A stretch of DNA of 62,954 nt, the filler included, from Asterionella formosa (lineage: Eukaryota): NCBI GenBank assembly GCA_002256025.1. It is 6 parts of 6 records of this genome, joined end to end, with 100 filler letters (N's around TTAATTAATTAA, not from the genome) between each part and the next. Parts side by side here need not be neighbours in the genome. Positions count along the whole stretch, not along the records: positions 21,084 to 31,490 come from NKIB01009525.1; 5 more parts are not named here. The stretch is one strand, 5' to 3'. Under the pieces are notes generated by a model, which was given only the letters and a program-made list of their open reading frames with translations, made no database searches and was not told the origin of the DNA. The translations under genes and the position numbers were made by a program. Shown one piece after another: positions 2,270 through 50,770 of this stretch. The stretch's first letter is position 1. Each line of letters starts with the position of its first letter.

Positions 2270-2540
2270 GATTCTCATTCATTTGATAAATGAAAATACC
2301 GGCAGAAATGTAGAAGACATCACCTCTGAAGAAGAAATGGTTGAAAAGTTGCAAAACCAAGAAATATATCTAACTAGTTGTCCAGTACATCAAGATGAAC
2401 ATCATGAAAGCAGAGAAAATATTGCATTTCTAAAAGAAAAGATATTCAAGAAAAAGTTTGAGCTAGATCAAGACCTTGAATTCAAGAAGTTAAATGCAGG
2501 CAGAGATGTGATGCTGGCTAAGTCAGTTGATGCTGTTTCT
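2270..2540 (+). pseudogene. Fragment of ORF2 of the Plavaka-like element, running into an assembly gap
   Basis: MVEKLQNQEIYLT...HQDEHHESRENIAFLKEKIFKKKFELDQDLE is near-identical to part of ORF 25639..26376(-). Confidence 0.85.
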
Positions 2541-14466: not shown

Positions 14467-14769
14467 TGAAAAGCAACTGATTTCCAAAGTCTGTCAATGA
14501 GTCCAATGCAATGGTGCTGACTGGCTTTTGATGACTAGGTGAACGACAATAATAGAAATACATCATTCCAATTTTTGGTTGATACACTGTGCCCTGTCTT
14601 AGGTGGCTTCATAGCATCTGTGTTCTTGTTAAATGGATAGCCAACTATCAAACCCATAGTTATCCCAGAACATCAAATGATGGTAATAGATGAAAAAACT
14701 CGGTTGCTATGATTTTGATTGTGAGACTCAGATGGGGATTTGTATTTCCAAAATTTGTAGTTACACAGA

Positions 14770-16760
14770 TAAAACCATTGCAATGATGTCTGCAAAAATA
14801 TTGCAAATTCAAAATTATGAAAAAGTCAGGATATGAACAGGAGAGAATGAAAATGAATCAATAATAATAAATTTGGCAACACTCCAATATGCTGTGCTGG
14901 ACAATACAGTGTCGTGAAATTATCACTCCACCATAGTAATGAAAATGGAGGAATACATACAGCCAACACTATGTATAAAGCAGCATCAATGTTTTTTGAT
15001 AGAAAAATTCAAATCTCCTTAACATTTATGGTATGGTTTGCATTGTTGAAGTCTCACTTACTATATTTATTATGTAACTAAGTATGTATTGGATTCTATT
15101 AGATCCATTCAAAATCAACATTGTCATCAACCCTGTTGATTAATGTGGTCAGTGTAATCACTATTCTTCTCAGGAACATTTGGTTGAAGTGGTTCAACAT
15201 ATTGATGCATATCCTCTTCACTTACATTGGGAAATGAGAAGTATGATTGTTGGTAGATGATATTTGTGGTGGAAGTAGCAATTCCACTAGGATTCCTTCC
15301 ATATTCAGATCGACTTTTTGTGAAAGTCCTCTGTAGATATGCTTATAATAAGCAAGTAGATCATCAGTCCATTGATCAGTGAGACCATTTGAAACTGAAC
15401 TTTCTTCCCTCACACTTTTTTAAATAATAAGCAAGGAAATCATCAGTCCATTGATCAGTGAGACCATTTGAAACTGAACTTTCTTCCCTCATACTTTTTT
15501 GATAAGTGGTTTCCCACCAATGTCAATAAAATCAGTAGTATGACAAATATCATTCTCTGAAATTTCGTGGGTATCTGGATTGAGACCCAAATATTTTGGT
15601 TGCAATCGGAATTTCTCTTTCAGCACCAAGAAGCGAAATGCTTCTGTACTGGTATTAATCAGCAAACCAATAAAACGTGATTGCAATTCACAATGAGCCC
15701 GAAGACTTAGTTGAAATTTGGCTTGGTCACACCAGATTTGTCTCCTGTTAGAAATGGTTCTCCACAGCAGGTCCTGCCTATATAATACACTGGAGCAAGA
15801 ACATCATGTCAGACTTGGTGTCCTTGGCTTCCCCTGTCAATGTACTTTGACTGCGCAAAATGAAAATGCGTGAATGCCCACCTAATCAAGTCATCAATAT
15901 CCATAGTCTGAAAGTTATATTCTGTTAGACCAGCTGGTGTCATGAATTATGTTAGCATTTTTATATTGAAACATATTTGATAAGAATATAATCAGCCACC
16001 AATTCAAAACATCATGCTTTCAGAGCATCTACCACCCTGCAAGAACTTACCTAAGATTCCTTTAAATTGATTATTCAATACATTCTGACATTCTCTCAAC
16101 TTTTAAATGCACATGCCACCAAATGTTGATTTGATGTAATCTAAACGTGCCTTGTTGGTTAATCCAAATCAATCTTTTGGCAAGCAAGTTCAAAGCGTTT
16201 TTCCTTAGTTTGTCATGTACTTGTTGGTGGAACCATGTCTTCCATATGCATGCGGGAGTTATTAATGGTATCGTCGACAAGAGCCATTTTTGTAGCAACA
16301 ACTGAAGATGAAACATCATCATCGGTTTCAAGTCTCAATGAGGGGATCCTGTGTAGCTGATGTTGTCCCGATGGATGGTGGGGTATAACCCCAACTAACT
16401 CCCTGTTGCTGATTGGGTTCCTTTGGATTATCGCCGATTCGATTTTGGTACTTGCTTCTTTGTTCCATACCGGAAGCATTTGCCACATGTCGCTTGTTTC
16501 CGTGAACCTCTTTACGGTTTTTGAAGACATTGTACTACTAGGTAACCGGGAGGTACGGGAAACTCCGTACTTCCTCGCTACGTGGAAAATTCCTTTTGTG
16601 TATCGTGCACAGACCACGCTCTTTTTTTTCAAATATCTTGCAAAATTCTAGTCGTGTTCTTCTGCGAAGTTCGCGAAGTTCGCATACATTGAAAAGTACG
16701 CGCGAATACCATTTCTTCGAATCGAGTTTGAGTTCTGATCAGGCATTAAACATCCACGGG
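14770..16760 (-). mobile_element. Plavaka-like element, left-part remnant
   Basis: 14780-16160 is the reverse complement of 46890-48180, and its end overlaps the start of contig 3 (21084 onward). Confidence 0.75.
15099..16530 (-). pseudogene. ORF1 (accessory gene) of the Plavaka-like element, degraded
   Basis: Fragments MSSKTVKRF..., FIGLLINTSTEAFRFL..., QWTDDLLAYYK..., DFEWI-stop. Paralogous to 46460-47871. Contains an ~80-bp internal duplication at 15348-15500. Confidence 0.7.
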
Positions 16761-20983: not shown

Positions 20984-21299
20984 NNNNNNNNNNNNNNNNN
21001 NNNNNNNNNNNNNNNNNNNNNNNNNNNTTAATTAATTAANNNNNNNNNNNNNNNNNNNNNNNNNNNNNNNNNNNNNNNNNNNNATAGATGATAGGAAAAC
21101 ATTGATTCTGCTCTATACTACTATTACTATTAGTGCCGCCTGTACTACATGTAGCGGTATACCTCCATTTTTACTACTATGGTGGAGTGATAATTTCACG
21201 ACTCTGTATTTTCCAGCACAGCATGTTCGAAGTGGCGCTCAAATTATTATAATATATTAATTCATTTTCATTCTATCCTTTTCATATCCTGACTTGTTC

Positions 21300-24200
21300 A
21301 TCATTTGCAATTTGCAATGTCTTTGCGCACATTGCAATGGTTTTATCTGTGTAACTACAAATTTCGGAAGAACAAATCCCCATCTGAGTCTCACAATCGA
21401 AATTGTAGCAACCGTGTTTTTTATGCATATGGTCACTGTCGACATTGCATGCAGGAACATCGAGTTCCTGGAATACATAGTGAAACTATGTATTGCGGTA
21501 GTCCATCTAATCATTCAAGGAAAGAAGTTAATGATGGCAGTGTAACTGCTGCAGCATTTAGGGAGATTAGACAAGAAGAGATTATGTGTCCTATCCTTGA
21601 ATCAAGTGACCACAATCATCCACTTCATGACGACAGCGACAACTCAGTTTATAACAATATTCAGTCACAACAGGACGAACAATTGAGACTAAAAACTGTC
21701 CAAGAGTTGAATTCAGAAACCATGCAATATTCAGATTTTCAAGATCGCACCGGCTTTCTCCCTGAAAATGCAATGGAAATTCCCCTTTCTCCTCAATTTC
21801 AACTTCCAAGTAAACATTCTCTGAACATGCATTCAATTGAATTAGAACTCATGTTATTCCTCAACGAGAATTAGCTACCTTCCACCAGTTTACTTTGATC
21901 ATCTAACGAAATGGCTGTTCAAGGCAAAAGCAATGAAATATTTTGATGGAAGGTATCAAGCTCCATCCTACCAGACTTTGAAAAAACGCATGGATATTTC
22001 ATTTCCACCAACATTAGCTGGTGGTCAACTGTTGACCAAACAAATAAAGATTGATAACAATTCAAATATGATCATCCCACGCACACTCCATTTTATTTCG
22101 AACCAGTGCAGCTCATTGCAGGATTGCTACGACGTGATTCCGATATCATGCAACATTTTGTATGTCACCCACAAGTGAAACTTACAACTTGTGGAGAACG
22201 CATATATGACGAAGTAACTTCTGCGACTTGGTTTGAAAATGCATTCAACAATTCGCCTGCATCAGAAAATGGAGTGTTGAAGACAGGGTGTTTCTTTGTT
22301 GCCCTAGCAGTTTTCAGTGATGGTTCACCTATTGATAAACAAATGAAACATTCCGAGCATCCGTTATTGCTGACAAGGTTATTAAACTTAACGTTAGAAG
22401 GAAGAAAAAAGTTGATGGATGGCACTTAGTATCTCTTTTGCCAGACATTGAAGTCAGTGATCTGGAGAAACAAATGAATAATATGTTGTCTGGTGTAGAC
22501 TCAAATTAGTATTTATTCCATTGTCGCCTTTCGAAGATCCAAACAAGTCATACGATATTTGGGTTCATGGTCTTGGTATGACAAAAGCTTATTTCCAGAT
22601 TGGAATGATCGTTGGTGATACAGAAGAACACAATAAAATTTGTGGTTTCAGGGGTGGTAATGGATTATATCGACGATATGTTTGTCGTGATTGCCTGGTT
22701 TCAACTGAAGATGCTGATAATCCCGATATTGGATGTGAACGTCGTAAAGTGTCAGATGTTAAAAAGTTTTTAAAAAAATTTCTTGACAAAAATGCATATC
22801 CCGATGGAAAATTACCATGTATCCCACCTGAATATTGTGTCTCCCAATCTAATGGCAAATATGCAACAGCAAACGAGTGGTGCCGTGTTATATCGCATAA
22901 TCCTATTGTGTCTGCACTAATAAATCATTTTTTTGGTGGTGACTTAGAAGGATTATTTGGTGCAACTCCATTTGAGGTTCTTCATCAATTACTACTTGGA
23001 ATATTTAAGTAATAAACGTAACACTGAAACAACATACTCTGCTTTTCTTGATCAAGAGCAACCGAAGAAACGGGCAAAGACCGAAAAGGACACACGCACC
23101 AGTTATCAAAAATATCTACACTGGCAAAAATCAAGACCCAACACTTGTACCAGCACCAGAAATGTATTTTCGAAACTATACTTCGAAAAAAGTGGCTGCT
23201 AGATATATCAATAGTCATTTGGAAAGGCAAAGCGATAGTGATATTCCAAAATTTTCATACAGATCTGGGATGACAGCATTGTCGAAAATGTCAGGGCAAG
23301 AAATTCCCGGATTATGTCTGTTAACTATTTTTTCAATGGGTGGAATGATGGGTTCAGAGAACATGCACCTAGAAAAGGATTTCACATTGCTGTTATGGTT
23401 ATGTATATCTATCAATGACACTTAATTCATACCACAATATACATCAACATGTATTGATATTTTAGAGGAAAGGGTGAAGAGATTTATGTCAGTTACTAAG
23501 ATTATGATTGGTCCCCAACGGGAAATGATATCTCAAATTGGCTTACAAATGGCGAAATTTCATGGAATGAAACATTACCCTCATCTGATTAGGAAGTTCG
23601 GATCTCCTCTTACTTTCTTCGGTGGATATTTGGAGTCTTTTTGAAAGAAAAATTGAAACAACCCAGTAAGCGAGTCAACGGCGGACAATTACATCGATTA
23701 AAGCATGACATTTTAACAAGGTCATATGAAACAAGGCTGTTTGCCTTGGCACGAAAAATTGTTTTTGTAAGTGATTCATTACGTACAGAAAACAAACAAA
23801 AGAAGATGAGTAGAGAAAATACCATCAATGAAAATGAGGGTATTTCAACAGAAATTGATTTCGAAGGAATGATTCCGGATACAATGATGTTGCCTAGTAG
23901 GTCGCCTGAAAATTTGGGAATCTCGCCTACCAAAATCCATTTACCAGCCCTTCCTGTTTAAGTTCAATTTTCTGCTTCATCATCAAATGACTATAGCAGG
24001 TGTCCCTAATAAGATTGGGCATGTATCACGGAGTAAGGATGCACCCTTGTCTCAAATGGTTCATCCTGATTTACCGAAGGGGGCCAACTACGTAAAGAGC
24101 ATTGCGAATTCAGCAATAGAAATAGCAAGAATCAAAAGTCTTGAAGATGGGGTTGGGCCTGTTTCCATTGTAAGGATTGACTTTTATCATCATATTAAAA

Positions 24201-24640
24201 TTGAAAGTAACGTTCCAGGCCAAACTACTATTTTCAGATGCCATCCGAAATGGAATAATGATTCAAAGGCAGGAATCTCTGGTCGTGAATGGTTTGACTG
24301 GGTCGAAGTGAACTGGGAGAAGGGAGATGGATCAAGTTTCTACACAGTTCCTGCAAAACTACTTCTTTGGGGAAATGTTATTTTCTCCAACACAACAACC
24401 ATTCTCTTAGCGTGTATTTGTTTTTTGCAAGAGGAGACACCTTATGCAATGATGCAACTGAATTGAGCGTTGTTGAATTTCATAACATACTTTCGTCAGC
24501 ATTTGTTGTTCCTGCTTTGAAACCACAGTAATCAAGCCAAGGAAATCTCTGAAACCGAAAGAAGCTTTGGAACAGATACGGAAAGATAATTTTTATGTTG
24601 CCATGCCTCCACGTAATTTATGAAAATCAATCGGGTGTGA
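21300..24640 (+). pseudogene. Plavaka-like (CACTA/En-Spm-related) transposase, frameshifted
   Basis: In order: Cys/His-rich N-terminus, AVFSDGS...EHPLLLT, VGDTEEHNKICG...CRDC, TPFEVLHQLLLGIFK, KFHGMKHYPHLIRKFGS...ESFLKEKLKQP and WFDWVEVNW, as expected for Plavaka transposases. Confidence 0.8.
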
Positions 24641-24782
24641 CCAAAACTAACAAGCGAACGTTGATAAATACACAAGAATAATATAAATGATAATGGTAAC
24701 AATATAGTTTCGCATACTAAATTGGTTATAATGAGGTTTTCACAAACTACAATTTCCTACGAAATGATTATCTAATGGTCCA

Positions 24783-26593
24783 TTATTTCTTCTTATTCAC
24801 TCCCAAAGAACCTAAGATGGTCCTTCTCGTTTCGTCCGAAATTTTGCTATTCCACTTTTCAACTGCAGTTCGATGTGATTCTGCAAACTTCTTCAATTTG
24901 ATTCCAGAAGGGCTATCATCAGATACAAAATTTTCTTTCAACTTTTTGTCAATTTTGATGCATCCAGAAATTTGGCCAAGAGGTGCATGATTATACCATT
25001 TGAAGGGAGCAAGTTTGTCATTACTTTGTTGTATCATGGATTTTACGTAGACAACTTCATCCTTCTTGAAAGAAGAGTTGCAAGGAACTCGTCCAAATAC
25101 TTTGTTGAAATAACATGGAATCATGTTCAGTGGCCATACTGATCTGCAATGGCGCCGTGCTTTGGTGCCAGTATAGAAAGATTCCGAGAACCCAATTTCT
25201 TCAGGTATATGGGATTCTTGTGGAAGATATCCTGTATCGGTGCATAACAATTCCAATTCTATTCTGCATCCGGGGATGATGCAGTACTTTCGGGCAAGGT
25301 GAAATACTTGATCATACTGTTCATCCACACTTGCATCTTTTCCTGGGTCATGGACTTGACATAATCCATCATTTATAGCAAAAAGATAATGCACAAAATG
25401 ATTGTTTTCCTCCTCATCTGATCTTTTGCAATACACAATTAGCACATAGTTACTTTCTTGATGAAGTGGATGACAAGTGGATGACAATCACCTTGGTATA
25501 TATATGGAGTATTATTACCCTTTTTTGGGTTCTCATCCAGATCAAATATAACCTTGACATCACTTGGATGAAGTTCATGAATTATATAATGGATCATAGA
25601 GTAAGGTAATTGTTTCAAGGTCCCAATATGCAAGATCTTTAAAATCTGAAGATGATTTTTTGGTACCTTTGACTCCATAAAATACAGAGGCGTAATTGCA
25701 TATTTCTTCTGGGGTCTTTCCACAGTTTTAGTTGTCCATGTGTTTTCGGAAAACTCAAGGAAAATGCCGTTTGCTTTGGCATAATAACTCTGCACATTTC
25801 ACGTGCCGACTTTTCACAAAAGTAGCTGCCTTCTGGATTGTTTTCAATGATTTTACAAAGAAATTCTTTTTCTTCCATGTATGATTTGGAAAAAGATTCA
25901 ATTTTGTGTTTCTGACTTCGTTCCCTAATCAGAGCATCAACTGCCTCAGAGAGCATCACATCTCTGTCTGCATTGATCTTCTTTAATTCGAGGTCTTGAT
26001 CTAGCTCAGACTTTTTCTCGAATATCTGTTCTTTTAGAAATGCAATAGTTTCTCTGCTTTCATGATGTTCATCTTGATGTTCTGAGCGGATAGTGAGATA
26101 TGTTTCTTGGTTTTGCAACTTTTCAACCATATCTACTTCTGAAGTGTTGTCTGCCACATTTCCGCCGATATTTACATTCATCGCATGATTTTGTTCATCC
26201 AGTGAATGAGAATCACTGAGTTCTTCTTCATTATCAGCGATTTCAGGAGAATGAGCAAAATACGACACTGAATGGTGGAACTGTGACTCTGTACAAATAG
26301 AGTCATCATCCACGAAGACCAACTGTTTGTGTTTCCTCTTCGAAAGCAATCTTTCCTTCTTTTCAATCTCAGCCACTATTGTATCGGCATGTATACTTCA
26401 TTATTTTTTCTGGATTATTATGAATCTGTTCAAATTCATTTGATCTTTGAGTGTATTCAAAGGAATCTTCGATTGATTTCATAACTTTCTTCATCTTCTT
26501 TTCCGAAAACATAAAGTCGTGTGGTGTAAACAATGGAAGTAAGTCTCATTTCTTGTTTGACTGATCCTTTCCATGAAATCCGTGAAATGCCAT
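24783..26593 (-). pseudogene. ORF2 of the Plavaka-like element (coiled-coil N-half; possible peptidase-like C-half), frameshifted
   Basis: Three overlapping ORFs (25639..26376, 25439..25795, 24783..25487) join into one ~600-codon gene. A paralogous fragment lies at 2270-2540. Confidence 0.7.
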
Positions 26594-27368
26594 TTGGAAA
26601 GTTGTCAAAGGGCCAGAAGACTATGATGTAAAACAGTGGAAGGGAAACGCGGAGCTTATTGCAGCGCTTGTGGAGGTGGAACTGGTGTGATGGTAACCGA
26701 GTGTAGTAATTGTTGAACAGAGCACAGTGGAATATGCATGTTCCGCCAGCGTAGTGTTTACACAATACACATGCCGGCATATATATAGCTAAAGCAACGA
26801 AAGACGACATGACAATGAACGTGATGGCTGGTTGTTGAGGATACCGGTATGTGATATGCATCAATCCATATCACAAATCATTTTATAGTGATCTACATAT
26901 CAACGCATCCGTATACTTAGATCCTATCCACTGTATAATACTATCATATTAACTGTTGACTTTAACTTTATACATTGAACGACAAACATATATATTTATT
27001 AACATACTTTATGATTGCTTGATTTATTTTCTATGATGTCTTGGTAACACTTGCGTACATAATTTATCGTATTTTATTGTCATTGTACTATTTTAACATA
27101 ATCATATTTTGATCAAAATTATATCATATACATTTTAAGAAATCATCACAGTTCTATGATCAATGCATCATAGCTATGTGATGTACTTTATTCAATATTA
27201 TGTATCATACTTTAGTGATGTATGCATCGATGTAACCCTATCATGATATCACATTATCATCTTATCAGTCATGATGAGATGATTACTGTATTATGCATCG
27301 TGCTACGGGGTATTTTATTATATCACGCAATTTAGTAGCTAACAAGTCACTCCGCCTGTAATGTACAA

Positions 27369-28050
27369 AAGTCGACAGTGCACATACTCACACGCTAATC
27401 AGGTTTGAGAAAACGGACAGTGGTTCCAACGAGCGAATAATGGTACCACGAGTACCAATTTTTCCAGCGTAAGAACTTTTCTCTCTATTGATGAGGATGA
27501 CACGGACACCGACTTTTCCAGGAGCAAACAACAATGAAGAAACCCACTTGTCGCTCTATTGATGTTAACAAAGATGCGGACAAGTTCAACAGTGAATACA
27601 AGAGCAACATATCAATGAGAACAAGTCGACAGTTTGTGTACGCACACGCCAAGCAGGTTTGAGGCGGACAGTGGTTCCAACTAGCGAATAACGTTACCAC
27701 GAGTACCAATTTTTCCAGCGTAAGAACTTGTCTCTCTATTGATGAGGATGACACAGACACCGACTTTTCCAGGAGCAAACAACAATGAAGAAACCCACTT
27801 GTCGCTCTGTTGATGTTAACAAAGATGCGGACAAGTTCAACAGTGAATACAAAGAACAACATATCAATGAGAACAAGTCGACAGTTTGTGTACGCACACG
27901 CCAAGCAGGTTTGAGGCAACGGACAATTCCAACAAGCTAATGACAATACAGATATCAAATTTTTCCTACGAGCAAACAACAATGAAAAGAGCCACTTGCT
28001 TTTGCTCTCTTGATGGTATCAAAGATGCGGACAAGTTCAATAGTTAATTC
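27369..28050. repeat. Tandem repeat, ~253-bp unit x ~2.7
   Basis: aagtcgacagt recurs at ~27369, ~27622 and ~27874 with near-identical downstream sequence. The paralog at 45240-45710 has one unit fewer. Confidence 0.9.
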
Positions 28051-29029
28051 AAGTACAGTATGCCAAATGCAGAAACGAGCGAGCGATATGAAAATGAAAT
28101 TCTAATCAGAATCATTCTATTACTATAGCAATATGGGCAAAAGTCTGTTATGCACATTTTCGTATCTCCTCTATGCTTAATCTCAATAGTAGATGTAGTA
28201 TCATGTGAGAATTGAAAATGCCAGCAAGAACAAGTAGAATGTGTTTGTTTTCCGGTTGATTGGCGACATTGTCATGCTGAAGTCGACGCAACAGATTTAC
28301 TTTGTGCGCTGTGTGCGGAAGTATTACAAGTTCGAATGATTTCTTCTCTCCTGTTAACTCTTAATTGAATGATTATGAACAAAGGTTCACTGCACATGAC
28401 GATTACTCGAAGATATAATGATCACTTGACCAACAAATTGAAGACGTAATCGCAAACATTCATTCCGCTTGTCATCGCTAGTATTTCGTTGTTGTTGCAA
28501 AAATCGGAGTGATGACGGATGGAAATGACGAGCCAAATTACATTACTTGAAGTGGTACATTATCCTACCAAGAAATTCGAATACTTTATCAAAATTATTA
28601 GATGACATAACGAAATATTATGATCAGATGATCACAATCCAATGATGCATCATGGAAATATGATAGTTTTTATTTGCAGACAAATGTAACATACTAGAAG
28701 TAGATTGTCCTGTTCTATAATGGATGTTTTTTAGCTTTGATTAAGGTTGTAACACTGATTGATGCTCCAGTGACAGACCGGAAATATTTGTGTTGTGTGA
28801 TGAGCCATTTAATGAGCCATTTCGTTTTTATTGGATTTCTCTTCAAGTTCTTAACGGATTGCATATGAACATACTAATGTGCACTGCCTGTAGATGATGA
28901 TTAATCAAAGCACATGATGACTTATTAAATTATTAGATGATGTAATGAAAAATTATAATCAGATGATATCTGGGCTCATAATTCCTTTTCAACTGCATGG
29001 ATGTATATCGTAGTTTCCAGTCACCAGAC

Positions 29030-44529: not shown

Positions 44530-47500
44530 TGTACCCTCTCTGCAAATAAAAGCTATCATATATCCATGATGCATCATAGGATTGTGATCATCTGATCATA
44601 ATATTTTGTTATATCATCAAATAATTTTGATAAATGCCTTTGTAATTTAAATAGTAACCCTTTTGACTACATATATTTAATTATTAAATGTATTGTTTCT
44701 ATTTGATTCCTGTATTCGAATTTCTTGGTGGGATAATGTACCAGCTCAAGTAATGTAATTTGGCTCGTCATTTCCATCCGTCATCACGCCGATTTTTGCA
44801 ACAACAACGAAATACTAGCGACGACAAGCAGATTGAATGTTTGCGATAATGTCTTCAATTGTTGGTCAAGTGATCATTATATCTTTGAGTAATCATCATG
44901 AGCAGTGAACCTTTGTTCATAATCATTCAATTAAGAGTTGACAGGAGAGAAGAAATCATTCGAACTCGTAATGTTTCCGCACACAGCGCACAAAGTAAAT
45001 CCGTTTCGTTCACTTCAGCATGACAATTTCGCCAATCAACCCGTAAGCAAACACATTCTACTTGTTCTCATTGACATTTTCAATTCTCACATGATACTAC
45101 CACATCTACTATTGTTATTCAGCATAGAAGGAGATACGAAAATGTGCGTAACAGACTACTGTCCACATAGCTATATTTATAGAATGATTCTGATTAGAAT
45201 GCATTTCATTTTCATATCGCTCGCTAGTTTCTGCATTTGGTATACTGTACTTGAATTAACTATTGAACTTGTCGGCATCTTTGATACCATCAAGAGAGCG
45301 AAAGCAAGTGGCTCTTTTCATTGTTGTTTGCTCGTAGGAAGAATTTATTATCTGTATCGTCATTTGCTTGTTGGAATTGTCCGTTGCCTCAAACTTGCTT
45401 GACGTGTGCGTGCAGACACTGTCGACTGGTTTTCAATGGTATGTTGTTCTTGTATTCACTGTTGAACTTGTCCGCATCTTGCTTTGTTACCATCAATAGA
45501 GCGACAAGTGCGTCTCTTCATTGTTGTTTGCTCCTGGAAAAGTCGGTGTCTGTGTCATCCTAATCAATAGAGAGACAAGTGTCCTCCATCATTGCGGTTT
45601 GCCGCTGGAAAAATGGTACTTGTGGTATTGTCATTCGCTCGTTGTAACCACTGTCCGTTGCCTCAAACCTGATTAGCGTGTGTTGTGTGTATGTGCACTG
45701 TCGACTTGTGTACATTACAGGAGTGACTTGTTAGCTACTAAAGTGCGTGATATAATAATATACCCCGTAGCACAATGCAGAATACAGTTCCCAATCATCT
45801 CATCATGATTGATAAGATGATAATGTGATATCATGATAGGGTTACATCGATGCATACATCACCAAAGTATGATATGTGAAATTGAAAAAAATTTATCACA
45901 TAGCTATGATACATTGATCAAAAAACAATGATGATTTTATAAAATGTTTATGATATATTTTTAATCAAATTTGATCATGTTAAAATAATACAATGACAAT
46001 AAAATACGATAAAATATGTTTGCAAGTGTTATCAATATATCATAGAAAAAGAAAAAAAGTCATAAAGTATGTTACTTATTATATACATTTAACTTTAAAT
46101 GTATACAGTAAAAGACAACAGTTAATATGATAGTATTATTTGGTGGATAGGATCTAAGTATACGGATGCGTTGATATGTACATCACTATAATATGATTTG
46201 TGACATGGATTGATGCATATCACATACCGGTATCCTCGACAACCAGCCTTCACCATCGTCATGTCGTTTTACCTTGTTATAGCTATATATATGCCAGCAT
46301 GTGTATTGTGTAAACACTACGCTGGCGGAACATGCATATTACACTGTGCTCTGTTCAACAATTACTACACTCAGTTACCATCACACCAGCTGTACCTCCA
46401 CAAGCGCCGCAAAAAGCTCCGCGTTTCCCTTTCACTGTTTTACATAATAGTCTTCTATTCCCTCAGTTTGTCATGTACTTGTTGGTCTGTGCGATTAGAA
46501 TTTTTTTTGATATGGTTCCATGTCATCCATCTGCATCCAGGAGTTATTAATGGTATCATCGACAGGAGCCATTTTTCTTGTATCAATAACTGAAGTAGAA
46601 ACACACACGTCATCATCGCTGTCAGTATCAATTACGGGATCCTTTGTACTAGTAGCTGATGGTGTTCCCATTGACAATGGGGTATTACCCCCAACGTCTC
46701 CCAATCGCCGATTGGGTTGCTTTGGATAATCGCCTATTCGCTTTTTCTTTGTTAACTCATTTTGGTACTTGCTTCTTTGTTCCATACCGGCAGTATTTGC
46801 CACATGTCTCTAGTTTCCATGAACCTCTTTATGGTTTCTTGAAGACATTGTACTACTTAATAACTGTTGTCGTTGTCTTCCTTAAAGTACCAACAAGACA
46901 CGTTTAGATTACATCAAATCAACATTTGGTGGCATGTGCATTAAAAAGTTGAGAGAATGTCTGAATGTAGCTATTGAATAATCAATTTAAAGGAATCTTA
47001 GGTAAGTTCTTGCAGGGAGATGCACCGAAAGCATGATGTTTTGAGTCGGGGATTATATTCTTATCAAATATGTTTGCTAACATAATTCATGACACACCAG
47101 CTGGTTTAACAGAATATAGCTAACTTCCAGACTATGGATATTGATGACTTTATTAGGTGGGCGTTCACGCTTTATCGTTTTGCGCAGTCAAAGGACATTA
47201 ACAGTGGAAGCCATGGATACCAAGTCTGGCGTGATGTTCTTGCTCCGGTGTATTTTATAGGCAGGCAGGACAAGCCGTGGAGAACCATTTTTAACAGGAG
47301 ACGAATCTGGTGTGGCCAAATTTCAACTCAGTCTTCGGGCACAGTGTGAATTGCAAACACGTTTTGTTGGTTTGCTGATCAATGCCAGTACAGAAGCATT
47401 TTGCTTCTTGATGCTGAAAGGAAAATTCCGATTACAACAAAAATATTTGGGTTTCAATCCAGATACCCATGAAATTTCAGAGAACGATAGCTATTCGTCA

Positions 47501-49695
47501 TTCTACTGATTTTGTCGACATTGGTGGGAAACCACTTATTAAAAAAAGTGTGAGCAATGGAAGAAAGTTCAGTTTCAAATGGTCTTACTGATCAATGGAC
47601 TGATGATCTACTCGTTTATTATAAGGAAATCTACACTGGACTTTCACAAAAGAATCGATCTGAATATGGAAGGAATCCTAGTGGAATTGCTACTCCCACC
47701 GCAAATATCATCTACCCACACTCATACTTCTCATTTCCCAACGTAAGTGAAGAGGATATACATCAATATGTTGAATCACTTGAACCAAATGTTCCTGAGA
47801 AGACTATTGATTATAATGACCGCATTAATCAACGGGACATTGATGACGACATTGATTTTGAATGGATCTAATAGAATCCAATGCATACTTAGTAGTTACA
47901 TAATAATTATAGTTAGTGTGAGACTTCTACAATGCAAGCCATATCATAGATGATAGGAAAACATTGATTCTGCTCTATGCTACTATTACTATTAGTGCCG
48001 CCTGTACTACATGTAGCGGTATACCTCCATTTTCACTACTATGGTGGAGTGATAATTTCACGACTCTGTATTTTCCAGCACAGCATGTTCGAAGTGGTGC
48101 TCAATTTATTATTTTAAATTAATTCATTTTCATTCTATCCTGTTCATATCCTGACTTGGTCATCATTTGCAATTTGCAATGTCTTTGCGCACATTGCAAT
48201 GGTGTTATCTGTGTAACTACAAATTTCGGAAGAAGAAATCCCCATCTGAGTCTCACAATCGAAATTGTAGCAACCGTGTTCTTTATGCATATGGTCATTG
48301 CCGACATTGCATGCAGGAACATCGAGTTCCTGGAATACATAGTGAAACTATGTATTGCGGTAGTGCAAATAATCATTCAAGGAAAGAAGTTAATGATGGC
48401 AGTGTAACTGCTGCAGCATTTAGGGAGATTAGACAAGAAGAGATTAATTTGTCCTATCCTTGAATCAAGTGACCACAATCATCCACTTCATGACGACAGC
48501 GACGATTCAGTTTATAACAATATTCAGTCACAACAGGACGAACAATTGAGACTAAAAACTCTCCAAGGGTTGAATTCAGAAACCATGCAATATTCAGATT
48601 TTCAAGATCACACCGGCTTTCTCCCTGAAAATGCAATGGAAATGCCCCTTCCTCCTCAATTTCAACTTCCGAGTAAACATTCTCTGAACATGCGCGCATC
48701 CAATCGAATGAGAACTCATGTTATTCTTCAACGAGAATTATCTTCCACCAGTTTACTTTGATCATCTAATGAAATGGCTGTTCAAGGCAAAAGCAATGAA
48801 ATATTTTGATGGAAGGTATCAAGCTCGCTCCATCCTACCAGACTTTGAAAAAACGCATGGATATTTCATTTCCACCAACATTAGCTGGTGTTCAACTGTT
48901 GACCAAACAAATAAAGATTGATATCAATTCAAATATGATCATCCCACGCACACTCCATTATTTCGAACCAGTACAGCTCATGGCAGGATTGCTATGCACG
49001 TGATTCCGATATCATGCAACATTTTGTATGTCACCCACAAGTGAAACTTACAACTTGTGGAGAACTCATGCATATATGACGAAGTAACTTCTGCGACTTG
49101 GTTTGAAAATGCATTCAACAATTCTCCTGCATCAGAAAATGGAGTGTTGAAGACAGGGTGTTTATTTGTTGCCCTAGCAGTTTTCAGTGATGATGGTTCA
49201 CCTATTGATAAACAAATGAAACATTCCGAGCATCCGTTTTTGCTGACAATGTTAAACTTAACGTTAGAAGGAAGAAAAAAGTTGATGGATGGCAATTAGT
49301 ATCTCTTTTGCCAGACATTGAAGTCAGTGATCTGGAGAAACAAATGAACAATAAGTTATCTGGTGACGACTTGTCCTTATGTAGACTAAAATTATATCAT
49401 TCTGTTACAGGATTTCTATTGTCGCCTTTCGAAGAGCGATCCAAACAAGTCATACAATATTTGGGTTCATGGTTTTGGTATGACAAAAGTTTATTTCCAA
49501 ATTTGAATGATCATTGGTGATACAGAAGAACACAATATATTTTGTGGCTTCAGGGGTGGTAATGAATTATATCGACGATATGTTTGTCGTGATTGCCTGG
49601 TTTCAACTGAGGATGCTGATAATCCTGATATTGGATGTGAACGTCATAAAGTGTCAGATGTTAAAATGTTTTTAAACAAGTTTCTTGACAAAAAT
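44530..49695 (+). mobile_element. Rearranged second copy of the Plavaka-like element (inverted arm, split ORF1, 5' half of transposase at 48160-49695)
   Basis: Piecewise homology to 26625-28680 (inverted), 16203-16540 (direct), 14780-16160 (inverted) and 21084-22790 (direct). Confidence 0.85.
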
Positions 49696-49699
49696 TGAT

Positions 49700-50770
49700 G
49701 GTTGGCCAGCCACCAAATCGAAAAGGAGCTATTGAATCACTGAAAGGGGACAAGTCATTCCGTATTTTTAATCCCAGCAATTGATCATCCTGGCATTTGC
49801 TCTTGACAAACCATGATGCTATGCACAGCTTGTTGATTCCGCCCTTTCTCCATCATATTCACTCATTCTTAGCCGCATGGTGTATCATCGTGCTGTATTG
49901 TCACTTCAGTTTTTCGCATCATGTGTTGCTTGAGATCCTTCATTTCAGGAAGTGGAGGCATGACAAGGAACATGAAAGGCATTTGCTCTTGACTTGTTAC
50001 CATCAATTGACTCCGCCCTTCTCTTCTAAGCCGCAAGTATCGCTCATTGTGCTGTATTATCACTTTCGTTTTCCGCGTCATCATGTGTGATGATCCTTCA
50101 TTTCAGGAGCAAAGTGTATACATGACAAGGAACATGAAAACATGATTTCAAATGTTTCAGCCATGAATACATATGTATAAAGATTTGTAAGAATTTTAAA
50201 TGTATGTATAGTTGAGCATCTGCATAGTTTTAAGCACGCTCATTATACGGCACATCCTGTGTATACTAATATCAATTTTGATCATACATAATTCAAATAT
50301 ATACAATGCATGATGAGTTCGTTCATAGTTTTCCACGACTTGTTGAATTTTTTCAATTTTTTGTGTGTCAATTCTTGTACCTACAAGTCAGTGGCTGATT
50401 CAATTAAGCCCCTTAATAAACGGGAGTCATCACCAATTTTTCAAATGGTCGAAATCATACATTTATGTATATAGACATATTGACCAAAATTCATATGGCC
50501 TACCGGTAGTACTTTATACTTGCTGGGAATTACTTCTATCATGGAAATACCACAATAGTGCAGTGGAAAACTGAATATGCTCATGTGTTCTTTAGGATCA
50601 TTTGATCATATTTTTAAGATCAATTAATCCTGGCTGATTCTTGAAAATAAATTTTGATCTTTCAATTTCTCATCGACAACACCATTTGTCATATGATCAA
50701 TATGTTATGATCAAAGGTATAGGATAAACAAATCAAAATTTATTGATAAAAAATCATAGTTTTTTCCAGA
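49700..50770 (+). repeat. Repeat family 'D', copy 2, with an internal ~185-bp duplication (49792-50140)
   Basis: Homologous to 350-930 and to the reverse complement of 57690-58310. Confidence 0.75.

What the first reader, a model, noticed from the sequence alone, without database searches (positions are those of the whole stretch)
21084..28690. Large three-gene Plavaka/CACTA-like transposon family in a diatom
Seen: overlapping pieces on contigs 1, 2, 3 and 5 reconstruct a >9-kb unit: ORF1(+), a ~1000-codon transposase(+), a convergent ORF2(-), and a repeat-rich arm. The transposase keeps plausible catalytic residues (FSDGS, VGDTEE, YLESFLK) and the PFEVLHQLLLG motif. Known: Plavaka transposases were defined mainly in fungi, are related to CACTA transposases, and often travel with cargo genes. 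Inference: a multi-copy, cargo-bearing diatom family with two uncharacterised accessory genes, probably undescribed. All copies here are dead and I could not find termini.
Basis: partly seen in the sequence, partly recalled or inferred. Interest (0 to 1): 0.75.

Follow-up and report, generated by a model that had tools for sequence, protein, structure and literature searches.

The report
Diatom Plavaka transposon with protease passenger
This is a broken copy of an abundant 12-kb cut-and-paste jumping element, likely of a diatom, that carries a spliced gene of unknown function and a gene predicted to clip SUMO/ubiquitin-like tags off proteins, and its relatives likely left the tiny regular scars that pepper this genome's repeats.

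Summary
Window 21084-28682 is the right two-thirds of a dead copy of a ~12-kb, high-copy Plavaka DNA transposon: 23-bp inverted ends (5'-CGTCTG...CAGACG-3') and a 2-bp target duplication in 9 of 15 two-ended copies. The transposase is ~1,170 codons. ORF2 is not uncharacterised: its predicted model matches clan-CE proteases (Ulp1/SENP/NEDP1), with His-Asp-Gln-Cys kept in sister families; this copy has lost the Cys. Not every copy is dead: contig C14015 lacks the whole transposase, keeps the passenger frames open, and its allele is the one in RNA contigs from two studies; its changes look neutral. Decaying copies, and a Gypsy control, carry many XY-(G/C/GC)-XY insertions, likely excision scars. 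Linkage in other diatom species and absence from Repbase/Dfam were not tested. I found no diatom Plavaka in the paper library, but cargo-bearing Plavakas and Ulp1-carrying CACTA/MULE elements are in print. The scan already reported this family, its protease, the expressed copy and the scars on other DNA of this genome.

The parts
21084..28682 (+). Remnant of one family-A copy: from just after ORF1 to the right terminus; the left ~4.3 kb lies off the contig
21317..24664 (+). Plavaka-type DDE transposase, broken by several frameshifts, stops and a ~100-bp deletion at 23011/23012; N-terminal Cys/His-rich segment, FSDGS, GDTEE, CRDC, EVLHQ, FHGMKHY, YLESF
24783..26593 (-). ORF2: coiled/acidic N-terminal half plus clan-CE (Ulp1/SENP/NEDP1-like) protease domain; His (~25398-25400) and Asp (~25347-25349) codons present; the Gln/Cys motif is lost in a ~357-bp deletion at ~25104
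27369..28053 (+). Tandem-repeat block of the right arm (two ~254-bp units at 91% plus a partial third)
28660..28682 (+). Right terminal inverted repeat, 23 bp (last base A where most copies have G)
21872..21877 (+). Scar TA-GC-TA; shifts the transposase frame
22129..22133 (+). Scar AC-G-AC
23680..23684 (+). Scar GG-C-GG
46518..49695 (+). Second copy (piece 5): ORF1 and the 5' part of the transposase; four XY-GC-XY scars in ORF1 near 46968, 47117, 47259 and 47488
44537..46456 (-). Right arm and right terminus of the family in inverted orientation, abutting the ORF1 piece (rearranged or nested copy)
14693..16647 (-). Third copy (piece 2): ORF1 fragments and the start of the transposase region
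2279..2534 (+). ORF2 fragment on piece 1, cut by an assembly gap

Best explanation
The stretch is a dead copy of a ~12-kb Plavaka-type DNA transposon with 23-bp inverted ends, a mostly 2-bp target duplication and two passenger genes, one spliced and unnamed and one predicted to be a SUMO/ubiquitin-like-tag protease that likely helped the element against host silencing. Shown: ends, target duplication, gene order, copy decay, ORF1 splicing, and an open transposase-less copy whose allele is in RNA. Inferred: the DDE transposase binds the ends and cuts the element out through hairpins on the flanking DNA. The first nick likely falls one base inside the element, so the terminal C enters the hairpin; opening and fill-in then leave XY-G, C-XY or XY-GC-XY scars while the transferred strand keeps its end. 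Also inferred: ORF2 removes SUMO, NEDD8 or ubiquitin from chromatin proteins or the transposase, and ORF1 is a DNA-binding or regulatory helper (weakest step). The family expanded in a burst and is decaying under CG methylation.
For: Ends: sharp borders and a 22/23 inverted match. Target duplication: exact 2 bp in 9 of 15 two-ended copies and 3 bp in 1, against about 1 expected by chance. Fungal PlavakaA ends read TGTCGGA.. and PlavakaB ends CATCA(G).., with 2 or 2-3 bp duplications (PMC12730594); CGTCTGCAAA resembles both. Pfam Plavaka is over cut-off for another copy's fragment (32.9 bits against 26.3) and for homologue P0001 at 52-55% identity (59.3 bits); 33 of 45 homologues match at E<=0.01. 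The three-gene order recurs in metagenome contigs L195 and L197 and in pieces of sister families at 28-56% protein identity. ORF2: Atlas top cluster 0.94, with Peptidase_C48 on 38% of its members; best Z 10.1 (rmsd 3.9, 140 aligned) to XopD, 9.8 to NEDP1, 8.5 to Ulp1, with CE-clan-type proteins filling the list down to Z~5.4; H, D, Q and C kept in sister families. RNA: GT..AG joints at L197 3075/3159 and 3472/3584, and a 4451->8265 joint, in runs X23, X22 and X21. C14015 carries that deletion and all 15 listed ORF2 allele differences. Scars: 147 of 385 distinct clean insertions in family A and 19 of 34 in the Gypsy control are XY-(G|C|GC)-XY; the filler is GC in 36 of 61 four-base cases and CG in 1. 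CpG transitions 7.5% against 2.3% at other C/G sites.
Against: The window's own transposase fragment scores 21.3 bits, under the Pfam cut-off, and the near-intact L195 (896 aa) and L197 (786 aa) frames give no Pfam hit at all. 5 of 15 two-ended copies show no duplication. The ends are CG..CG, not the CA..TG usual in the clade. The ORF2 model is low in confidence (mean pLDDT 49, pTM 0.56), no Foldseek hit reaches E<=0.001, and Pfam and PDB sequence searches do not find a protease. No activity or substrate is shown. No scar was tied to a known insertion site; the P-nucleotide test is weak (8 of 12 against about 5 by chance, hand count), and the target-preference comparison was not run. C14015 differs from L197 in ORF2 at 31 bases, 21 of them amino-acid changing (hand count), so there is no sign of purifying selection. 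Linkage was seen only within this genome's families and near-identical metagenome contigs.
Confidence: 0.75

Rival explanations
1. The passengers are inert cargo: the element is an ordinary Plavaka, ORF2 and ORF1 do nothing for it now, and C14015 is transcribed only because of where it sits and is open only because it is young or lucky.
For: Near-neutral change pattern in C14015 ORF2 (21 of 31 differences alter the protein). With a few hundred copies an occasional open frame is expected. RNA contigs cannot give strand or level for ORF2.
Against: Catalytic residues are kept across families that are only 30-55% identical, which points to selection while those families were spreading. C14015 has no frame-breaking lesion in 3.6 kb, whereas the window's piece-5 copy has five 4-base insertions in 1.1 kb of ORF1.
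Confidence: 0.3
2. The scars are not made by this family. They come from another element with G..C ends and a 2-bp duplication, from other Plavaka families in the genome, or from a break-repair habit of the host.
For: Scars occur at a similar rate per substitution in Gypsy copies (19 per ~1,500) and family A (147 per ~12,500) and are spread evenly along the element. Several other Plavaka families, some with long open frames, are present and their ends were not determined. A G..C-ended element would give GC without any hairpin.
Against: The duplication length equals this family's; G and C are the complements of its terminal bases; sister families show like ends; family ends number in the hundreds.
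Confidence: 0.35
3. The element is a separate CMCT lineage (neither PlavakaA nor PlavakaB nor EnSpm) that only brushes the Plavaka profile.
For: Weak and patchy Pfam scores; CG..CG ends differ from both named Plavaka end types; the closest homologues are unnamed metagenome proteins.
Against: Plavaka is the only transposase family hit in Pfam by any copy or homologue scanned; end motif and duplication length sit between PlavakaA and PlavakaB.
Confidence: 0.2

Closest known systems
PlavakaA and PlavakaB DNA transposons of Agaricomycotina fungi, CMCT clade (Kojima 2025, PMC12730594; abstract, passages, two sections, supplement parts 1 and 20 of 20)
   Same: Plavaka-type DDE transposase with C(2)C and H(3)H motifs; short inverted ends of similar pattern; 2-bp (sometimes 3-bp) target duplication; can carry passenger genes.
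   Different: Ends are CGTCTG..CAGACG rather than TGT..ACA or CATCA..TGATG; the host is likely a diatom; the passengers are a CE-clan protease and an unnamed spliced gene, not a TET/JBP dioxygenase.
Giant red-algal Plavaka elements with accessory genes PAG1-3 (Bostrychia moritziana, bioRxiv 10.1101/2025.02.11.637652; abstract and passages, supplements not seen)
   Same: Large, high-copy, mostly degenerate multi-gene Plavaka families with internal tandem repeats in an alga.
   Different: 17-19 kb with methylase/SET and ParB/2OG-oxygenase passengers; no protease in the passages read; homology of ORF1 to PAG1 could not be tested.
ULP1-carrying CACTA and MULE elements of plants (Cactavine families, PMC2528002; Kaonashi/VANDAL, PMC13317346; passages)
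   Same: A Ulp1-like protease domain carried by a cut-and-paste transposon; role unproven, linked to escape from silencing in VANDAL elements.
   Different: Different transposase lineages and hosts; ORF2 is too diverged to hit Pfam Peptidase_C48 and was recognised by language-model features and fold.
Ac/Ds (hAT) excision footprints (PMC5873905; passages)
   Same: Footprints explained by flank hairpins, centred on a complemented base.
   Different: In Ac/Ds the complemented base is the host base next to the element; here the filler is constant (G/C) whatever the target and the full duplication is kept.

Membership tests
Plavaka (CMCT clade) | Transposase matches the Plavaka profile PF18759 | tested here: met
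   Over cut-off in copy fragment L005:3-869 and homologues P0001 and P0003; 33 of 45 homologues at E<=0.01. Under cut-off in the window fragment; no hit for L195/L197 frames.
Plavaka (CMCT clade) | D, D, E with C(2)C and H(3-4)H between the second D and E | tested here: met
   FSDGS, GDTEE, CRDC, FHGMKHY, YLESF in order; G265 D266 C291 H389 H667 of P0001 nearly invariant in 45 homologues. Assignment of the first D and the E is by position, not by structure.
Plavaka (CMCT clade) | 2-bp or 2-3-bp target site duplication | tested here: met
   9 of 15 two-ended copies 2 bp, 1 of 15 3 bp, 5 of 15 none.
PlavakaA | Termini 5'-TGT..ACA-3' | tested here: not met
   Majority terminus CGTCTG..CAGACG; TGTCTG or CAGACA occur in a minority, as expected from CpG decay.
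PlavakaB | Termini 5'-CATCA..TGATG-3' | tested here: not met
   CGTCT against CATCA: 3 of 5 bases match.
Plavaka (CMCT clade) | Groups with fungal and red-algal Plavaka in a transposase tree | not testable with these tools
   Named reference transposases could not be brought into the tools.
EnSpm/CACTA proper | CAC..GTG termini, 3-bp duplication, Transposase_21 domain | tested here: not met
   Termini CG..CG, mostly 2-bp duplication; no Transposase_21 hit.
Clan CE cysteine protease (Ulp1/SENP/NEDP1-like), ORF2 | His-Asp...Gln-x(n)-Cys order, conserved | tested here: met
   NHF..RDP..QPEDDSGWSCGPF in family A; equivalents in sister families. Gln/Cys deleted in the window copy.
Clan CE cysteine protease (Ulp1/SENP/NEDP1-like), ORF2 | CE-clan fold | tested here: met
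   Z 10.1, rmsd 3.9, 140 aligned (XopD); Z 9.8 NEDP1; Z 8.5 Ulp1; from a low-confidence model.
Peptidase_C48 (PF02902) | Profile match over cut-off | tested here: inconclusive
   No hmmscan hit; Atlas lead only.
Clan CE cysteine protease (Ulp1/SENP/NEDP1-like), ORF2 | Cleaves SUMO, NEDD8 or ubiquitin conjugates | not testable with these tools
   Needs an assay.

The most novel reading that the evidence does not exclude
Diatom Plavaka transposases cut one base inside their own ends, so excision leaves XY-GC-XY scars that are a leading source of multi-base insertions in this genome's repeats, and a transposase-less copy shared by cultured and wild populations still supplies a deSUMOylase-like anti-silencing factor and a spliced helper in trans.
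Probability: 0.25. Interest if true: 0.7.

Novelty: new variant of a known kind. Interest (0 to 1): 0.42.

Why it matters
It extends Plavaka elements, so far described in fungi and red and green algae in the papers I could read, to a likely diatom, with a third end type and a protease passenger. The repeated capture of Ulp1-like proteases by unrelated transposons has no tested explanation; an open, transcribed copy in a culturable alga makes it testable. If the scars are excision footprints they give the cutting geometry of a Plavaka transposase, for which I found no description, and show transposon excision as a major indel source in this genome.

Tried and rejected
No relative of the transposase in viral contigs (91 pattern matches, 0 confirmed). 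PDB sequence searches gave nothing for the transposase profile or ORF2. The full-length ORF2 model was unusable (pLDDT 33) and was not searched. The ~100-bp and ~357-bp gaps in the window copy are deletions, not introns: intact homologues and an RNA contig keep them. That the frameshifts are only sequencing errors was rejected: most multi-base lesions have a fixed pattern. A list of large nested insertions returned 2 cases and did not identify a scar-making element. The ends of the distant Plavaka families were not found. The target-preference comparison of scars and insertions was not computed; a hand tally was inconclusive. Low RNA cover over the transposase is not used as evidence. Linkage in other species: the two more distant metagenome contigs (L194, L196) are too short to hold the passengers. 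Domestication of C14015 was considered and is not supported by its change pattern.
Full report
What is there. The window joins six contig pieces; the finding lies on piece 3, which is G000:C9525. Self-comparison shows the same element on pieces 1, 2, 3 and 5. Piece 3 holds a broken transposase (21317-24664, +), a convergent broken ORF2 (26593-24783, -), a tandem-repeat arm and the right end at 28682. ORF1 lies upstream and is represented only on pieces 2 and 5. Silicon-transporter genes in G000 (7 matches over cut-off; 0 of 14 control genomes over it, one under) support a diatom host.

Family anatomy. DNA searches gave 288, 872 and 748 first-look candidates for the transposase core, the right end and the left end; only 40 were scored each time, and these are not copy numbers. 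Exact end patterns matched 83 and 109 times, controls 0. I aligned 24 trimmed copies out of 44 fetched stretches and polished a ~12.25-kb consensus in script. Its ends are 23-bp inverted repeats, 22 of 23 matching, starting CGTCTG. Of 15 copies with both ends on one fetched stretch, 9 have an exact 2-bp duplication, 1 a 3-bp one, and 5 none. The 30 copies with more than 1,500 aligned bases differ from consensus by a median 4.0% substitutions (2.8-6.7%), with CpG transitions at 7.5% against 2.3%. Two metagenome contigs, L195 and L197, carry ORF1, transposase and ORF2 in the same order and nearly intact; they may be collapsed averages of many copies. Sister families in G000 (transposase 30-75% identical) show ORF1 upstream and/or convergent ORF2 at 28-56% identity, all three together on C13776, and right-end-like motifs ending CAGACG. 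Linkage in another species was not shown.

Transposase. The window fragment hits only Plavaka, under cut-off (E 1.7e-4, 21.3 bits). Another copy's fragment and two homologues pass it, and 33 of 45 homologues match at E<=0.01. Against this, the near-intact L195 and L197 frames return no Pfam family. The D, D, C(2)C, H(3)H, E order of the CMCT clade is present. Kojima 2025 (PMC12730594; abstract, passages, sections 16 and 34, supplement parts 1 and 20 of 20) gives PlavakaA ends TGT..ACA with 2-bp duplications and PlavakaB ends CATCA..TGATG with 2-3 bp. The diatom end fits neither exactly but resembles both, so I file it as a Plavaka variant, with a tree still owed.

ORF2. I noticed a His..Asp..Gln-x-Cys pattern (resemblance to Ulp1 recalled). 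The Atlas top cluster scored 0.94, with Peptidase_C48 on 38% of members, and 9 of the ten best family-bearing hits shared the family or clan. A model of residues ~300-620 from 16 sequences was low in confidence (pLDDT 49). Its Foldseek rows, none at E<=0.001, were almost all CE-clan-type proteases, and the wide search ranked XopD (Z 10.1, rmsd 3.9, 140 aligned), NEDP1 (9.8), NopD (9.2) and Ulp1 (8.5) above unrelated folds at 4.6 or less (clan labels for these entries are partly from my own knowledge). The residues are kept in sister families; one relative has Asn for Asp. Pfam and PDB sequence searches were negative. The window copy has lost the Gln/Cys segment. Ulp1 passengers are known in plant CACTA and MULE elements (PMC2528002, PMC13317346; passages), so the theme is not new.

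ORF1 and the expressed copy. RNA contigs laid on L197 show two GT..AG joints in ORF1 in 3 of 4 runs (X23 polyA from an algal sample; X22 and X21 from one lake sample of another study), giving 558 codons by my count. The same contigs jump from L197 4451 to 8265, skipping the transposase. That joint also exists in DNA (run X1, table 5c) and on contig C14015, which has a fully open 720-codon ORF2 with all four catalytic residues and open ORF1 exons 2-3 (exon 1 is off the contig). All 15 ORF2 allele differences listed for the RNA are in C14015. Splicing shows ORF1 transcription; contigs cannot show the strand or level of ORF2, and DNA can be present in RNA libraries. By hand, 21 of 31 ORF2 differences from L197 change the protein, close to neutral, so I do not claim domestication. 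ORF1's function is unknown.

Scars. Copies carry an excess of 3-4-base insertions. Of 106 clean 4-base insertions, 69 duplicate at least 2 flanking bases (null 18%); among the 61 with a 2-3-base duplication the filler is GC in 36 and CG in 1, and among 30 three-base cases it is G or C in 28. Over whole copies, 147 of 385 distinct clean insertions are XY-(G|C|GC)-XY; in 30 Gypsy loci from the same genome, 19 of 34. Only insertions with 8 matching bases on both sides were counted. The pattern is therefore not confined to this family. A constant filler that complements the element's terminal bases, with the duplication length of this family, fits hairpin excision in which the element's last base enters the flank hairpin; this differs from Ac/Ds, where the host base is complemented (PMC5873905, passages). 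This is inference: the P-nucleotide test is weak (8 of 12 against about 5), no scar was paired with an insertion, and the site-preference test could not be run.

Novelty. Searches: Plavaka (one listed, none on diatoms by title), Plavaka+diatom (one listed; I read the single passage in PMC12633428, and only the listing of PMC9674265), Plavaka+protease (8 listings only), diatom+EnSpm+TIR, diatom+CACTA (listings only), Ulp1+EnSpm (0), Ulp1+CACTA, excision footprint+hairpin+CACTA, Lanisha. None showed a diatom Plavaka, a protease-bearing Plavaka or these scars. The Spirogyra preprint (passages) lists Plavaka in fungi and Archaeplastida. The founding fungal paper was not held, the Bostrychia supplements were not seen and may include stramenopile sequences, and Repbase and Dfam were out of reach. 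Earlier notes of this scan, read after my own calls on each point, report the same family, protease, expressed copy and scars on other pieces of this genome; they are repeats, not support.

Verdict. A real, well-bounded Plavaka variant with a known kind of passenger, an expressed transposase-less derivative and a suggestive excision signature. New variant of a known kind; interest 0.42.

Noticed in passing
L157:7038-8420 (G000:C12103): An ORF with an HxD...H pattern like a 2OG-Fe(II) oxygenase (motif recalled; no Pfam hit) lies downstream of a distant Plavaka transposase, echoing red-algal PAG3.
   Followed up: partly
L154:1628-2671 (G000:C1063): A small multi-copy ORF (103 matches in G000) sits beside another distant Plavaka family and weakly resembles ORF1 exon 3.
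   Followed up: partly
L159, L142, L166 (G000:C14656, C15249, C14190): Distant Plavaka families (~22-27% identical) have open frames of 728-839 codons on short contigs and may be the younger, active families.
   Followed up: partly
window:44537-49695: On piece 5 a right arm in inverted orientation directly abuts ORF1, as if it had replaced the left arm or inserted there.
   Followed up: no
L252-L281 (Gypsy copies; window:18300-19800): The XY-(G|C|GC)-XY insertions are also the main insertion class in Gypsy copies (19 of 34).
   Followed up: yes
L011:3364, L017, L021 (left-end-like motifs): Other elements share only the first ~170 bp of the left end and are nested inside family-A copies; probably a related family or non-autonomous partners.
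   Followed up: no
window:10501-14463: A 1,321-codon open frame with no Pfam match.
   Followed up: no
window:4664-5710: Porphyromonas-type peptidyl-arginine/agmatine deiminase gene (Pfam E 5e-88) in an algal contig.
   Followed up: no
window:56784-58436, 619-1554, 50121-50743: A second, unrelated repeat with a ~60-bp tandem array is shared by pieces 1, 5 and 6.
   Followed up: no
L197:636-1500 (left arm): RNA contigs over the non-coding arm show joints with CT..AC ends, i.e. GT..AG on the minus strand, hinting at a spliced transcript from the arm.
   Followed up: no
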